Origin: Callorhinchus milii
Taxonomy: Eukaryota
Assembly: GCF_018977255.1 (NCBI RefSeq)
Contig: NW_024704744.1
Span: forward strand, 16,430,001-16,494,000
Direction of reading: 5' to 3'
Length of the DNA: 64,000 nucleotides
Part shown: positions 54,001-60,000 of the stretch, piece by piece
Numbering within the stretch: position 1 is the first letter of the stretch
How the letters are laid out: each line of letters begins with the position of its first letter
Made by a program: the position numbers

Positions 54001-57000
54001 CTTCTGATATTCTTGTTGTTGCCAACAGTGAAGCTGAGTACAGAAATGTACTTCTATTATGGTGGAAAAATAAAGCTGGGTAGTTAGAAGTAAGAATGAA
54101 AGCTTTTCTTTGGAATCCTGCCTTGCTCAAACAAACTGACATTTTTTTTATCAATACTGTATTTATGCTGCTGGGAGCAGTGGACTTCTCTGCATTGCTC
54201 GCAGTAATAGAGAGATACAGAATAGGAAGCCCAATTTGTATTCCTGCTCCACAGTCCAGTGCGAGGGCTATTTCGGCTCCACGAGTCTATCGATCCCTTC
54301 CTGACTTCCCTTCCTCCAGGAGATTGAGTTCAAGATCCTCACCCTAACCTTTGAATCTTTCCACAGTCTTGCCCCACCCTACCTCTGTGACCCTCTCAAA
54401 CCCTACCAACCTGCCTACTCCCTCTGCCTCCTAGGCACTGGCCTGCTTCGTGGCCCTACACCCCAACTGCTTTTAGTGTATCTGCCCCCACCTTTTGGAA
54501 CTCCAAACCAAATTCCCTTTGCCTTGTCCTACTCTTGCCTCCTTCAAGGTCTACCTCAAGATCTTCCTCTTTGTCTGCACCTTTGGTCATCTTTCATTCC
54601 CACCCTTCTTGGCTCCCATCTCAAGCTTAAGTGCAAACCCCGTACTATCCAACCCCTTGGGACATCCTGCCGATATGAAAGGCTGTATATAAATATCAAT
54701 TTGTTGTTGTTGCTGTTGATGTAAATAAGCTTGGTGCAGCTTTGCACACTATTTGTTTAATGTTATTATAATCGGTTCTTTAATAATGTTTGTCCACCTG
54801 ACATGAAAGGGACTTCTGACTAGTTATAATAATCCTTACTATCCTAAAAGTAGGATTATTATAACTAGTCTGTGCTGGTGTTTATTCTCCACATGAGCTT
54901 CTACCCCTCTTAAACCTCGCTTGATATCTGCCTCCCATATCCCTCTATTCCCTTCTCTTAGGTAAAGCTCATTCACTTGCAAAGGATGAACATCGGGAAG
55001 ATGAAAAGACAGGAGAGAAGATGAATTTAATGTCACTCTAAGATTGAACTGTAACATAGAAAGAAGGTAATAACCTCCAATGGATCAGCACAGAGACATT
55101 CCTCCTGACAGCTTGAACAGTTACCATTGCTGTGGAGCTGAGAAAGTCCTCAGCAGGAAAAAAAGAGTTTACTGGCTCAAAAAAGTACCTGTAGTATAAA
55201 CGGTGTCTCCAGCAGGTAATGCTATTTACATCACATTGGTTTACCATCTTGGATCAGTTTACGTTAAAATTAAATGGAATTGAAATTGTGGCATTTGCAT
55301 ACTGGTTGGTTGAGATCGATTTTGAGTTCCAGTTTGGTTACAGTTATGGCTTCTGCTATCCAATTTGCTGACACAAAAACATTGCAAGTCTAAGGCTGAG
55401 AAAGGCTATTTTATATTTTCCAATGAGCAAACTGCAGCTTTTCTCAGCCCAGAAATGGCACTGAAGTAAAACGATGGCCGTGACTGCAATATTGATGGCC
55501 TCTGAGGTCACCTTATTTTTTGGCCTTTGTTTTAAAAGCAAATTTGGTAGTGATTCCTGCTATTTCAATCACAACCTGTTAATTCAATCCCAAATTGGAT
55601 ATTTACTCAAAAGAAAAAAATCGCAAGGCTATGGGAAAAGAACAGGACAGTGGGAATAGTTGGATAGCTCTTTCAAAGAGCTGGCACAGGCACAATGGGT
55701 CGAATGGCCTCCTTCTGTGTTGTAGGATTCTATAATTCTAACTCAGAAGTCACAATTAACAGAGTGAATCCTTGTTTTGCAATGCTGCATTCTCAATCCC
55801 AAACAACTAGTCGCTGATTTCCTGCATTTTAAATGTGCGAACCAACTGACCCAATAATGTGGACTAATGTCATTGTTATGTAATCTGTAATCACTGAAAT
55901 AATTCGTCTAATGGAATCTTTCCCTGGAAATAGATAATGGTTCATGTCACGGCAAGTTAATTACAACAACAAAATCTCCTCAGTTCCCACATGAGAAGGG
56001 CAATGCAGTACAACATGGATTACAATAGCTGACATTTAGATTTCTTTTATATAATCCGTTCTGAATTAACACTGTTGTAAGGTACACGATTCACGATACT
56101 GCCAGTCCAAAAATATTTTTGACTTCAAAAGCTTCATTTATATTTTAAATTGCACTCGCCTAAGGGTGAATTTTCCATTAATTCTGCAATTCGGCCCGTG
56201 AAAAAAATAAATACTGAAATCAATTGCCTTGACATTGTGCCTGCTGTATTTTAATACGATCCTGTGCCTGCAGTTAAAGAAAATACAATCAGGACATTTG
56301 TTACTCCAAAGGATGAAAATATAGAGGGTTTGGTGCAAAACTATCAGGGAGCTGAAACACACCAAGACAAGACTTAATTAAGCCAATGAATTCAAGCTAG
56401 CAGCTTCAGTTTGAATGGATTTCTTTTCAAATCATATTACAGTCTGCTGCATTGACGTCACTTTCAGTGACATCAGCACATTCTTCTATGCTGTGTGAAT
56501 GGAGGAACAAATTGATCCCAGTGGGGGCTGCATGCTCAGATGCTCCGAGTGAATCGAGACTTGATGTTTAGCCGGGCTGAGATACGTGTGCGTTTTTTTT
56601 TATCCATCAGCAGACTCCTGTCTTTCCTGACCTGCGGCAGCTGCAGTTTTCAATTTTCTTCCCCTTTCCAATCTCTCTTTGTGATTAATGTGGGATCAGC
56701 CCTTTATTTTACGATGCTACTCCCACTCACTGGGATGCAGTAATGTGACTCAAGACTCACAGCCGATACATTGGTATTGTATAAATACAGGAAGCACCAG
56801 GGATTCCCCAGAGATGCTGATATGAATGATCCTTTATTGTTCATGGCTTAAATGTGATCACAACTTAGATAAATTATGTGTCCCTTGGCTCCCTGATGTA
56901 TACTTTAGTTTTATATAATGAGTGTGACCTCGAGCTACAGTGACGCAGCCTCATGGGGCCACAAAGCAACACAGCAATCTGTCATAGCAACTGTGATGGC

Positions 57001-60000
57001 TGGGCAGTGCTGCTGAACCATCTCACAAACCCAGACAAGCCATTTTACAACAAAAATGTTACATTTATACAACACCTTTCACGTCTCAAAGTGCTTTACA
57101 CACCTGACAGGGAGCCCTCATTGGGGCTGAGGAGAGCGGAGGAAGGTGGACGTTGGGAATTGGGGTGGGGGGGGGTGGGGTGGGAGGGGGACGGAGGTGA
57201 CCCAATGCGCGTTTGAAAAGAAAACTTTTATGTGGCGTTTAAAGGTGGGGAGGGATGAGGGGTGAGATGGAGGGCTGGAGTTTCAGAGGGTGGAGGTAAG
57301 AATGGCTGAAAGTCTGCTCGCTAACTGTGGATCATGGACGAGTCAGGTGGGGGACATGAATCAGGCTGCTGAGTAGAGCTTTCAATTAGCGAGCAGGCTT
57401 TCAGCTATTCTCACCTCCGCTCTCTGGAACTCCAGCCCTCCATCTCGCCCCTCATCCCTCCCCACCTTTAAAAGCCACATAAAAGTTTTCTTTTCAAACG
57501 CGCATTGGGTCAGCTCCCCCCACTATCCCCAACCCCCTACCCGCCCCAATTCCCAACCTGCACCTTCCCTGCTCTCCTCAGCCCCAATGAGGGCTCCCTG
57601 TCAGGCATGTCAAGCACTTTGAGACGTGAAAGGTGCTGTACAAATGTAACATTTTTGTTGTTGTAAAATGGCTTGTCTGGGTTTGTGAAATGGTTCAGCA
57701 GCACTGCCCAGCCATCACAGTTGCTATGACAGATTGCTGTGCTGCTTTGTGGCCCCATGAGGCTGCGTCACTGTAGCTCAAGGTCACACTCATTATATAA
57801 AACTAAAGTATACATCAGGGAGCCATTAAAAATATTAAAAGTAGATGCAAAATAAAGTTGTACCTAACAAACAATGGGGTCTGATTTACAGGATTTCTTG
57901 ATGGGATTTCCTAATATAGAATCCAAATCTCGTAAGTGTGGACTTCGTCTGGTAACCACTCAGATGTGATTGACAGTATTTCTTGCACAATGTTCTAACC
58001 TTTCAGCCATTATCCCACCGGGGATTCAAATGGGTTTCCCTAATATTAAGGAATCGAGACTGGACCCAACACCTCTTATACAACATGTATGACCAACTCA
58101 GCATGTTACTGGATCAGTAATCTAATTAATGGCTACTACAGTTTTATGAAACTTATGTAAAGAAAATTTATGCCTTATAATATTCATCATTTTTTACGAA
58201 ATATACTATCCATTTGTATAAATTTCATGCATTTGGACAGGGACAGAATATTCTTGATTTTTACTCATCTGTAAATAATAATAATAATGATAATAACATT
58301 ATAATAATTTGGGACTCACAAGTGCATACAGATAGAACAGTAATCTGCAATAAAACAGATACTGTATAATCATAAAAAAACGATATTGCACATGCAGTAT
58401 TATTTATGTGACCATTCCAAATGATTACAATGTATGAAATGAGGAACTACAGAAGATCAGGAAACATGTTGATCTACAAACTGAATGTGGATGCATGTGG
58501 AGGTACAAGACAAGCATAGTTCCTATGGTCATTGATGCAACTGGTACTGTTAATAAGACAAATCAGAAATGGTTTGATAATATACTGGTGCACAAAATGT
58601 CCACCTCCTGTAGAAAGTAGTTACTTGGGGAAGTTCAAATATACTAAGAAACTTAACATCCATTCATATGTAACATGGCAGTGTTATTAGTCTAGCTGAC
58701 CCATCACTGAAAACCACTTAGAATCTACTTCTACAGAGTGATCTAAATTGCAATAACATAATAATAATAGTAATAATAATCATAACTATGTAACCTGGCA
58801 ATGTTATTGGTCTGGCTGACTCATCGCTGAAAACCACTTAGAAATTACCTCTACAGAGTGATTTAAATTGTAATAACATAATAATAGCAATAATCATTTT
58901 TACATTTGCCACAGCAACTTTCACATCAAGAAGACAGCTCAAGCTTTCACAGGCTTCACTGCAAAGTGCAGCAACCATATGCTGTGTAGACTAATACAGC
59001 AAACAACCTCGCACAGCAGTGTCCCACAAAATGAATGCCAAATCTTATTCGGGGGGATGTTGGCCAGGACACAGAGAGAAACTCCCTTCTCTTTTTGCCA
59101 TGGGATTTTTAACAACCACTTGAACAAGCAGGTGGGACCTCGGTTTAACGTCTCATCCGCAGGAAGATACCTCCATAATGCAGCAATACCCCATCACTAC
59201 ACTGGTCTCAGCTTAGACTATATGTCCCAAGGCCCAAAGTGGGGTTTGAACCCTCAACCTTCTAACTCAGAGACGAGTGCTACCGACTGAGCCAGGCTGA
59301 TATACACTATCACATCATGAGTCATCATTATATCTCAAGTCTTTAAGCATTAACATTTTAAAACATATTTCTGTAGATTAAATCTCCATATGATGAATCC
59401 TAATTGTACTTGCTTGGCATTTATGTTATCATTGACTTTCAGTCTATAATTAGAGCATTTCTGAGCTTTCTAACTCAGGATATTCCAATGGGAATCGTCA
59501 ATTGACAGCATTTTCAACATGAAAGTTATGTTAGATTGTAATTTTGTAGAAAGGGTATCAATGTTGGAAAATATTAGAGGGAAACTATTTTGTATGGCAT
59601 GTGCATACACACTAGGAGCTCACCTGTGAAGCTTTTGTAATTGTAATGAGTGAAAAACTGTCAGAATCAAGCTGAGAATACCTGTGTAAATATCTTGTCG
59701 TACTGTAATAAAATGTTGTGAAGCTACCACATTGGGAATACCTCACAGCGTTAATGTAGTCTGCTGCTCAAACTCTCAGCTTCAGATGTCATTGGTCAAA
59801 TCATTAGCTTGAAGCATCAGGCTGCAGTCTAGTATAATGGGGGGGGGAGGGTGAAGGAAGGGAAAAACACTGGTTTGAATTGGATTACCTTTGATCTGCG
59901 AACCTCTGGAACTCAATCCCTCCATCTGCCTTCTCTTTAGCCATCTTCTGATCGCATCTGAAGACTTTCTTCTTCAACTGTGTCTGCGATCACCTCCTCT

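What the first reader, a model, noticed from the sequence alone, without database searches (positions are those of the whole stretch)
56886..57825. About 940-bp fold-back duplication able to form a ~440-bp hairpin
Seen: both arms contain the same L2 3' end plus about 160 bp of unique flank, so these are not two insertions. The L2 sequence continues from the left arm into the spacer, marking the left arm as donor. By eye the unique outer part differs at 3 of about 160 positions, the inner L2 part at 8 of about 125, and a G-run tract (57162-57190, G4-like) is the most diverged. Inference: template-switch inverted duplication, possibly with arm-to-arm conversion. If transcribed it yields long dsRNA containing L2 3' sequence, a potential hairpin source of endo-siRNAs against the dominant L2/SINE families.
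Basis: partly seen in the sequence, partly recalled or inferred. Interest (0 to 1): 0.68.

Follow-up and report, generated by a model that had tools for sequence, protein, structure and literature searches.

The report
LINE insertion folded back on itself
A 940-base inverted duplication is really there, and it looks like an old, probably harmless scar left when a truncated L2 retrotransposon copy folded back on itself as it inserted, not a demonstrated source of regulatory small RNAs.

Summary
Arms 56886-57327 and 57383-57825 flank a 55-nt spacer: 411 of 447 alignment columns are identical, with 27 mismatches and 9 gap columns. Each arm holds 161 nt of sequence unique in the window plus about 280 nt of an L2-type LINE 3' end. 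L2 homology runs from the left arm into the spacer, so the left arm is the original.

Three further points. The palindrome centre lies at the L2 fragment's 5' end, and no L2 follows the right arm. A 7-nt direct repeat, AGCCATT, brackets [L2 + inverted copy] (57038-57044 and 57821-57827; chance 0.003-0.015). Both arms carry derived substitutions, mostly transitions, so this is old and not an assembly error.

Best reading (about 0.5): during target-primed reverse transcription the L2 cDNA snapped back. It copied itself and 161 nt of upstream target, then joined the other target end through AGCCA. This junction class is known from R2 and L1 experiments. Rival (about 0.3): a later DNA-level fold-back.

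Arm-to-arm conversion is not shown. The siRNA idea is untested: 0 of 920 21-mers match elsewhere in the window with 1 mismatch or fewer. Ordinary in kind, modest interest.

The parts
56886..57046 (+). A: 161 nt of unique target DNA upstream of the L2 3' junction. It is the outer part of the left (original) arm. It begins TGGCT and ends AGCCATTTT.
   Evidence: Unique in the window. Differs from its inverted copy at 3 of 161 positions.
57047..57327 (-). B: L2-type LINE 3' end (ORF2 C-terminal region, 3' UTR, stem-loop tail, TTG repeats), sense on the minus strand. It is the inner part of the left arm.
   Evidence: blastn to RT-bearing L2 copies of the window, E 4e-16. Alignments. Tail motif.
57328..57382 (-). 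C: 55-nt spacer. It is the continuation of the same L2 copy towards its 5' truncation point, and the loop of the fold-back.
   Evidence: L2 homology runs on from the left arm to 57364-57366 by blastn and to about 57378 in the multiple alignment. The plus-strand reading of the spacer does not align to L2.
57383..57664 (+). B': inverted copy of B, with L2 sense on the plus strand, ending in TTG repeats. The L2 3' stem-loop lies at 57613-57637.
   Evidence: 24 mismatches in 277 aligned positions against B; stem-loop.
57665..57825 (+). A': inverted copy of the 161-nt flank A.
   Evidence: 98% complementary to 56886-57046.
57038..57044 (+). Left copy of the 7-nt direct repeat AGCCATT. It lies at the inner end of A, 2 nt before the L2 tail. 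Read as a candidate target-site duplication.
   Evidence: longest common substring of 7. Chance is 0.015 for random 20-mer pairs of the window and 0.003 when the junction register is required.
57821..57827 (+). Right copy of AGCCATT: the last 5 nt of the right arm plus the first 2 nt of the downstream flank. Read as the microhomology or target-site duplication at the closing junction.
   Evidence: The 5-7 nt length fits the 3-5 bp peak of L2-clade target-site duplications (PMC4245944, passages) and the 6-8 nt repeats by eye at SINEs of the window.
57155..57190 (+). G4-motif tract in the left arm, antisense to the C-rich L2 3' UTR. Its partner lies at 57516-57554 on the minus strand. This is the most diverged segment.
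   Evidence: The same L2 region is a G4 motif in 3 other copies (19008-19041, 28583-28609, 43482-43519).

Best explanation
This is a by-product of one L2 retrotransposition event, with no function shown.

Inferred sequence of events:
1. L2 endonuclease nicked the plus strand just after AGCCATT (57044-57046).
2. The L2 RNA was reverse-transcribed from that 3' OH, giving antisense cDNA 57047 to about 57382, a severely 5'-truncated copy.
3. Instead of annealing to the other target end, the free cDNA 3' end folded back on itself, leaving a 55-nt loop.
4. It primed DNA-templated synthesis that copied the cDNA (B') and ran on for 161 nt into the upstream target strand (A').
5. When the new 3' end read AGCCA, it could pair with the 3' overhang of the other target end (the target-site duplication). 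The break was sealed and the second strand filled in.

The result is A-B-C-B'-A'-D, bracketed by AGCCATT.

Shown: the structure, the polarity, the position of the L2 5' end at the centre, the direct repeat, and divergence in both arms since formation. Inferred: the order of events and their coupling to integration.

Today the locus is most likely a neutral relic. It is about 6.5% diverged (K2P), which is some tens of millions of years at an assumed 1e-9 substitutions per site per year. It would make a long hairpin only if something transcribes across it.
For: (1) The L2 3' junction is intact and typical: stem-loop tail plus TTG repeats, as in 23 other tails of the window. Other copies of this tail family lie downstream of RVT_1 reverse-transcriptase ORFs.

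(2) The spacer is L2 sequence contiguous with the left arm only. L2 homology stops at the centre, and none is found in 57826-59900. The palindrome centre therefore equals the L2 5' truncation point, which the cDNA snap-back model requires.

(3) A 7-nt direct repeat brackets [L2 + inverted copy]. Its right copy is the very end of the inverted repeat plus 2 nt (p 0.003-0.015). The 2 extra nt occur only on the side predicted by the spacer polarity.

(4) The repeat length fits L2-clade target-site duplications (peak 3-5 bp; 5 bp for ZfL2-1; PMC4245944, passages).

(5) There is precedent. [quoted passage not shown] L1 insertions with inverted duplications of adjacent genomic DNA, formed by self-annealed 3' ends with 2-bp microhomology, are reported in clones and tumours (bioRxiv 10.1101/2024.12.14.628481, passages).

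(6) The structure is real and old. Transitions outnumber transversions 18:9 overall and 15:3 outside the G-run. With 3 L2 copies as outgroups, 10 differences are derived in the right arm, 7 in the left, and 12 are unresolved.
Against: - The direct repeat was found after looking for it, and its chance probability (0.003-0.015) is only moderate.
- The last 4-18 nt of the spacer cannot be assigned to L2 with the roughly 60%-identical outgroups at hand, so the L2 5' end is not mapped to the base.
- Microhomology at the fold-back point is at most 2 nt (TG/CA) and cannot be verified after divergence.
- Snap-back synthesis would have had to displace or follow resection of 161 nt of duplex target. In the R2 data, target-templated snap-backs are the rarer kind.
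- The same product arises if a break or a replication switch later hit the L2 5' junction of an ordinary insertion.
- Both arms share differences from the general tail consensus, for example TG where all 3 outgroups have CG. This could mean ageing before the duplication, or only a different subfamily.
- The lower divergence of the flank is not explained by this model.
- No orthologous or paralogous locus could be examined.
Confidence: 0.5

Rival explanations
1. A later DNA-level fold-back, unconnected with integration. A double-strand break or a stalled fork inside or at the end of a pre-existing L2 copy led to snap-back or inter-strand template switching (fold-back priming, MMBIR, or a short-range template-switch mutation). 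This copied 443 nt in inverted orientation before rejoining.
For: The architecture is the generic product of fold-back priming: an inverted copy next to its donor, a short spacer, and little microhomology. Listings and abstracts seen for PMC3907307, PMC7467729, PMC10622511 and PMC11724301. If the L2 was once longer and its 5' part was lost in the event, the centre-in-L2 coincidence needs no explanation. Differences from the tail consensus shared by both arms could be ageing before the duplication.
Against: It needs either the break to fall within a few nt of the L2 5' junction, or a deletion of the rest of the L2 together with a chance 7-nt match to the L2 3' junction (p 0.003-0.015). The foldback insertions that PMC11724301 reports at yeast breaks are mostly about 5-34 bp (abstract), far shorter than 443 nt. 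A switch back onto an L2-bearing template at AGCCA would have copied L2 again, which is not seen: after 57825 the sequence is not L2.
Confidence: 0.3
2. Whatever its origin, the locus is a working hairpin-RNA gene. It is transcribed through both arms, diced into 21-22-nt endo-siRNAs, and represses L2 and its SINE parasites through the shared 3' tail.
For: Either strand folds into a hairpin with a roughly 440-bp stem. Arms over 400 nt meet the LIRBase criterion for hpRNA candidates (PMC8728187, passages). The arms contain the L2 3' tail that L2-clade proteins must recognise (PMC4176376, passages).
Against: - No transcript, promoter or small-RNA evidence is available.
- 0 of 85 ORFs of 55 aa or more in 46-64 kb hit Pfam, so no host gene is visible.
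- 0 of 920 21-mers match elsewhere in the window with 1 mismatch or fewer, and only 15 with 2, although 23 other tails lie in the window.
- The arms drift apart with derived changes in both, with no sign of constraint.
- Rfam finds only sub-threshold matches to plant long-hairpin miRNA models, on both strands.
- Such repeats are very numerous in vertebrate genomes.
Confidence: 0.05
3. Two separate head-to-head insertions of one repeat unit that is longer than thought. This could be an L2 copy carrying a 161-nt 3' transduction, or a composite element in which the L2-like tail is internal.
For: Elsewhere in the window a tail plus about 55 nt downstream is shared by two sites 957 nt apart (21212-21312 and 22169-22269, 92%). 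So sequence 3' of a tail can be repeated in this genome.
Against: - The 161-nt part has no other copy in the window.
- The two copies would have to abut exactly, one truncated at 57382 and the other at 57383.
- There is no tail or simple repeat at the outer ends, and no direct repeat between 56885 and 57826.
- L2-clade elements need their own 3' stem-loop near the RNA end (PMC4176376).
- The flank is the least diverged part (3/161), not the most.
Confidence: 0.05
4. An assembly or read artefact, such as a fold-back chimeric long read.
For: Palindromic chimeras are a known long-read artefact (recalled, no call). The G-run differences include indels, as homopolymer errors would.
Against: The arms differ by 27 substitutions with a transition bias (15:3 outside the G-run) and by only 4 indel events. 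Derived states lie in both arms. There is a 55-nt asymmetric spacer, and unique sequence continues on both sides.
Confidence: 0.03

Closest known systems
'Snap-back' 5' junctions of R2-protein-mediated (PRINT) insertions (PMC11371274, passages read)
   Same: [quoted passage not shown] This gives target DNA joined to antisense insert sequence.
   Different: Those are engineered R2 events at rDNA in human cells. This one is a fixed germline L2-type insertion whose snap-back ran through the whole 281-nt cDNA and 161 nt into the flank. That paper's extended data and supplements were not seen.
L1 insertions with an inverted duplication of adjacent genomic DNA (bioRxiv 10.1101/2024.12.14.628481, passages read)
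   Same: A self-annealed 3' end at a TPRT-generated break primes synthesis. Microhomology at the inversion junction is small (2 bp) and the hairpin loop is short.
   Different: The examples described there duplicate genomic DNA on the reciprocal end. Here the primary (cDNA-bearing) end is duplicated, insert included. The element is an L2 type, not L1, and the event is old and germline.
Twin-priming 5' inversions of L1
   Same: An inverted LINE segment arises during integration, flanked by a target-site duplication.
   Different: Twin priming inverts a different, more 5' part of the RNA and carries no flank. Here the two arms are the same sequence and include 161 nt of target DNA. According to PMC4245944 (passages), 5' inversions were seen almost only with L1 in human cells.
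Fold-back priming and template-switch inverted duplications at breaks or forks (PMC3907307, PMC7467729, PMC10622511, PMC11724301; listings and abstracts)
   Same: An inverted copy next to its donor with a short spacer, made by a 3' end that primes on its own strand.
   Different: Those give either very short insertions (about 5-34 bp) or chromosome-scale duplications with dicentrics. Here a 443-nt local insertion sits at a LINE 5' junction and is bracketed by a short direct repeat.
hpRNA and long-inverted-repeat loci (Drosophila hpRNAs, PMC10317233 abstract; LIRBase, PMC8728187 passages)
   Same: A long inverted repeat with arms over 400 nt and a short loop that can fold into long dsRNA.
   Different: No transcription, small RNAs or targets are shown. 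There are no near-perfect 21-mer targets in the window.

Membership tests
LINE insertion with cDNA snap-back junction (TPRT by-product) | Intact LINE 3' junction: family tail abutting target DNA | tested here: met
   Stem-loop tail plus TTG repeats ending at 57047 (left) and 57664 (right). The same tail occurs at 23 other sites. Other copies of the tail family follow RVT_1 ORFs.
LINE insertion with cDNA snap-back junction (TPRT by-product) | The inverted copy begins at the 5' end of the RNA-templated cDNA, and no LINE sequence lies beyond it | tested here: met
   L2 homology runs to 57364-57366 (blastn) and to about 57378 (alignment) of a spacer ending at 57382. No L2 homology in 57826-59900. 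The last 4-18 nt are unassigned.
LINE insertion with cDNA snap-back junction (TPRT by-product) | Target-site duplication or microhomology bracketing the whole composite insertion | tested here: met
   AGCCATT at 57038-57044 and 57821-57827. Chance 0.015 (loose) and 0.003 (in register). The repeat was found post hoc.
LINE insertion with cDNA snap-back junction (TPRT by-product) | Relatives show only the empty site or the fold-back, never the plain insertion | not testable with these tools
   No eukaryotic genome collection is on hand. The flanks are unique in the window.
L2-clade LINE (3' end) | 3' stem-loop followed by short tandem repeats, with no poly(A) | tested here: met
   8-bp stem at 57613-57637, then TTG repeats. 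The homologous stem occurs in 3 other copies. The criterion comes from PMC4176376 (passages).
L2-clade LINE (3' end) | Clade placement by reverse-transcriptase phylogeny | not tested
Only the Pfam RVT_1 domain was shown, in 4 ORFs of the window. CR1-group membership in the wide sense is what the data support.
hpRNA / endo-siRNA locus | Long inverted repeat folding into long dsRNA | tested here: met
   Minimum free energy -840.6 and -830.3 kcal/mol, z -47 and -65.
hpRNA / endo-siRNA locus | Transcription through both arms and 21-22-nt small RNAs from both | not testable with these tools
   No expression data. No Pfam-bearing ORF in 46-64 kb (0 of 85).
hpRNA / endo-siRNA locus | Targets with near-perfect complementarity | tested here: not met
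   Within the window only: 0 of 920 21-mers with 1 mismatch or fewer elsewhere, and 15 of 920 with 2. The rest of the genome was not seen.
Fold-back or MITE-type DNA transposon | Terminal inverted repeats flanked by a target-site duplication at the outer ends, and several copies | tested here: not met
   No direct repeat across 56885/57826. No other copy in the window. The arms are an L2 3' end plus unique DNA.
Twin-priming 5' inversion | The inverted segment comes from a different, more 5' part of the LINE RNA and contains no flank | tested here: not met
   The arms are the same 442-443 nt and include the 161-nt flank.
Rfam microRNA precursor families (MIR1437, MIR533, MIR2118 and others) | Score at or above the family's gathering threshold | tested here: not met
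   Best score 110 bits against a gathering score of 168. Hits fall on both strands, and all are plant long-hairpin models. Nothing at the locus in the gathering-threshold scan.

The most novel reading that the evidence does not exclude
LINE integration errors seed hairpin loci against the LINE itself. A snap-back during L2 integration instantly creates a perfect hairpin of about 440 bp. That hairpin contains the very 3' tail which L2 proteins and their SINE parasites depend on. If read through from a neighbouring promoter, each such accident would be a ready-made RNAi or dsRNA-sensing trigger against the then-active subfamily. Loci like this one would be the decayed remains of that self-inflicted immunisation.
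Probability: 0.05. Interest if true: 0.75.

Novelty: new member of a known kind. Interest (0 to 1): 0.3.

Why it matters
If the integration-coupled reading holds, this is a fixed germline footprint of cDNA snap-back synthesis by an L2-type element. So far that step has been documented, in the papers read here, only in engineered R2 insertions and in L1 events in cultured cells and tumours. Part of the many long inverted repeats of vertebrate genomes would then be made directly by LINE integration and not by later rearrangement. That can be tested by a genome-wide census of fold-backs centred on LINE 5' ends. For genome annotation, it warns that 'inverted L2 pairs' which share flank are single events. 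As it stands, the locus is an ordinary neutral relic.

Tried and rejected
- Outer-end target-site duplication, as for a DNA transposon: none.
- L2 continuing beyond the right arm: none in 57826-59900. The hit at 59901-59997 is a separate plus-strand fragment.
- In-window paralogues of X, A or D to reconstruct the empty site: none, apart from simple ATT-repeat hits.
- Host-gene context: 0 of 85 ORFs of 55 aa or more in 46-64 kb hit Pfam. Among 20 ORFs of 110 aa or more across the window, only 4 RVT_1 hits and one sub-threshold SARG hit.
- Rfam: only tRNA-like SINE heads at gathering level, and sub-threshold hairpin look-alikes at the locus.
- Timing the duplication against the insertion by CpG decay at outgroup CpG sites: uninformative, because the outgroups are only about 60% identical.
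- Gene conversion: run-length and dispersion tests are not significant.
- Microhomology at the fold-back junction: at most 2 nt, and not assessable after 15% local divergence.
- Not run, as irrelevant to non-coding vertebrate DNA: the prokaryotic genome-contig collection, the phage, plasmid and E. coli collections, the protein-database searches, and the structure and complex predictors.
- One literature search was sent with a badly formed term and repeated correctly.

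
Full report
**What is there**

The window has no N and is 40% G+C. I do not take it for human. It carries 25 matches to one L2/SINE-type 3' tail motif and six tRNA-like SINE heads. It also has four ORFs with a reverse-transcriptase domain. That the tail resembles those of fish or cartilaginous-fish L2/SINE families is recalled, not tested.

A gapped alignment joins them into one inverted repeat:
- left arm 56886-57327
- spacer 57328-57382 (55 nt)
- right arm 57383-57825

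Of 447 columns, 411 are identical. There are 27 mismatches and 9 gap columns in 4 indel events. Either strand folds as RNA into a single long hairpin (-840.6 and -830.3 kcal/mol; z -47 and -65). Within 5 kb no other inverted repeat in the window comes close; the next has 98-nt arms at 80%.

**Anatomy**

The outer 161 nt of each arm (A, 56886-57046; A', 57665-57825) has no other copy in the window. The inner roughly 280 nt is the 3' end of an L2-type LINE. Three lines show this:
- It aligns with three copies in the window (E down to 4e-16, about 60% identity). In two of them (27648-28700 and 43399-44618) the same tail follows an RVT_1 ORF; the third (ending at 19140) has no RVT_1 hit.
- It ends in the family's stem-loop tail and TTG repeats.
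- It is sense on the minus strand in the left arm and on the plus strand in the right arm.

Read on the minus strand, L2 homology continues from the left arm into the spacer. It reaches 57364-57366 by blastn and about 57378 in the multiple alignment. The plus-strand reading of the spacer does not align, and homology on the right arm starts only at 57385-57396. One caveat applies. A once longer palindrome that lost the inner end of its right arm would look the same.

First, L2 homology stops at the centre and does not resume after the right arm; nothing is found in 57826-59900. The palindrome centre therefore sits at the 5' end of the L2 fragment.

Second, the 7-mer AGCCATT occurs at 57038-57044 and again at 57821-57827. 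The first copy is the inner end of A, 2 nt before the L2 tail. The second is the last 5 nt of the right arm plus the first 2 nt of the downstream flank. So a short direct repeat brackets exactly [L2 + inverted copy].

- In random pairs of 20-mers from the window, a shared 7-mer occurs with p = 0.015. With the junction register required, p = 0.003.
- By eye, two of four SINEs of the window show 6-8-nt flanking repeats; the other two are unclear.
- L2-clade target-site duplications peak at 3-5 bp, and at 5 bp for ZfL2-1 (PMC4245944, passages).
- The 2 nt beyond the inverted repeat match only on the side that the spacer polarity predicts.

**It is real and old**

The differences are mostly substitutions with a transition bias: 18:9 overall and 15:3 outside the G-run. 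Seven are at CpG sites. Polarised with the three L2 copies, 10 are derived in the right arm, 7 in the left, and 12 are unresolved. Outside the G-run the split is 3 right-derived and 6 left-derived. Read errors or copying errors in one arm would not give this pattern. K2P distance is 0.065 overall. That is some tens of millions of years if one assumes about 1e-9 substitutions per site per year. This is an assumption, since the species is unknown.

**Mechanism**

The simplest account is a snap-back during target-primed reverse transcription.
1. The plus strand was nicked after AGCCATT.
2. L2 RNA was copied into cDNA (57047 to about 57382).
3. The free cDNA 3' end folded back with a 55-nt loop.
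4. It primed synthesis along the cDNA and on into 161 nt of the upstream target strand.
5. Once it ended in AGCCA, it annealed to the overhang of the other target end, and the break was closed.

Every junction of the present sequence is then accounted for. The steps themselves are inferred.

The process has precedent. [quoted passage not shown] L1 insertions with inverted duplications of adjacent DNA, formed by self-annealed 3' ends with 2-bp microhomology, are described in clones and tumours (bioRxiv 10.1101/2024.12.14.628481, passages). I give this reading about 0.5.

**Rivals**

*A later DNA-level fold-back, about 0.3.* Break repair or a replication template switch acting on a pre-existing L2 gives the same product. 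But it needs the break to fall at the L2 5' junction. Otherwise it needs loss of the rest of the L2 plus a chance 7-mer match.

*Two insertions of a longer repeat unit, about 0.05.* This is unlikely for several reasons. The flank is unique in the window. The two copies would have to abut exactly. The outer ends have no tail. L2-clade elements also need their own 3' stem-loop (PMC4176376, passages). Still, a 101-nt direct repeat containing a tail plus downstream sequence elsewhere in the window shows that the idea cannot be dismissed without the genome.

*An assembly artefact, about 0.03.* This does not fit the substitution pattern or the asymmetric spacer.

*Other kinds.* Twin priming and DNA-transposon readings each fail a defining feature.

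**Conversion and function**

The flank (3/161) is less diverged than the L2 part (24/277): Fisher p 0.0035, 0.027 without the G-run, and 0.05 also without CpG sites. The innermost 47 nt are the most diverged outside the G-run (7/47, all transitions; p 0.003 against the rest). But that partition is post hoc, and unpartitioned tests are not significant (dispersion p 0.06 and 0.10; longest identical run p 0.66). Arm-to-arm conversion is possible but not shown. Higher mutability of the L2 sequence and of the palindrome centre is an alternative.

The G-run is a G4 motif in both arms, on opposite strands. The same holds for this L2 region in three other copies, so it is a family feature.

For the hairpin-siRNA idea there are no expression data.
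- No Pfam-bearing ORF lies in 46-64 kb (0 of 85).
- No 21-mer of the fold-back matches elsewhere in the window with 1 mismatch or fewer (0 of 920; 15 with 2 mismatches).
- Rfam gives only sub-threshold look-alikes of plant long-hairpin miRNAs, on both strands.
- LIRBase counts 4,590,178 inverted repeats with arms over 400 nt (loops up to 100 kb allowed) in 208 vertebrate genomes (PMC8728187, passages).

**What stayed unchecked**

The following were therefore not examined:
- orthologues
- other genomic copies of the flank
- the L2 subfamily consensus
- transcription

Supplementary files of the papers cited were closed and their figure images are not held, so neither was seen. The clade label 'L2' rests on tail features and an RVT_1 domain, not on a phylogeny.

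**Verdict**

This is a genuine fold-back of one L2 3' end plus flank. It was most likely made in a single step during L2 integration and is now a decaying neutral relic. It is a new natural example of a known kind of event. Interest is modest.

Noticed in passing
window 40547-41100; 46869-47080; 16901-17069: Three tail-to-tail pairs of SINE 3' ends, with ATT-repeat tails facing each other across 358, 32 and 35 nt. Arms are 67-98 nt at 70-80% identity. They look like separate insertions into or next to an existing AT-rich tail, the opposite geometry to the head-to-head fold-back.
   Followed up: partly
window 3701-3772, 26460-26531, 35040-35110, 37476-37547, 47220-47289 (all minus), 63938-64000 (plus, cut by the window end): Six tRNA-like SINE heads. 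Four have a tail motif about 270-290 nt downstream, ending in ATT repeats. The copy headed at 37547 shows a clear 8-nt flanking repeat (ATTAAAGG).
   Followed up: partly
window-wide, e.g. 19093, 28659, 43414, 41900, 47796, 7459: 25 matches (6 or fewer substitutions in 24 nt) to one L2/SINE 3' tail motif in 64 kb, the two arms included. About 0.05 would be expected by chance by my estimate. Tails end in TTG or ATT repeats.
   Followed up: partly
window 19008-19041 (-), 28583-28609 (-), 43482-43519 (+): The C-rich L2 3' UTR gives a G4 motif on the antisense strand in three other L2 copies, as in both arms of the fold-back. It is a family feature, not a peculiarity of this locus.
   Followed up: no
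window 21212-21312 and 22169-22269: A 101-nt direct repeat at 92%, 957 nt apart. It comprises the last part of a SINE/L2-type tail, its ATT/ACT repeats and about 55 nt downstream. It is either a small duplication or a repeat family in which the tail motif is internal.
   Followed up: partly
window 58641-58880: Tandem duplication of a 120-nt unit (2 copies, 81%), about 0.8 kb downstream of the fold-back, with AAT-type microsatellites around it.
   Followed up: no
window 24232-24651 (-), 27648-28307 (+), 43905-44618 (-): ORF fragments with the Pfam RVT_1 domain (E 3e-9 to 2.5e-16). They are decayed L2-type LINE bodies upstream of the shared tails. 45332-45700 gives only a sub-threshold SARG hit, probably low complexity.
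   Followed up: partly
window 57238-57472, both strands: Rfam's plant long-hairpin miRNA models (MIR1437 and others) score up to 110 bits (gathering score 168) on the centre of the fold-back, on both strands. This is a structure-only look-alike that could mislead automated annotation.
   Followed up: yes
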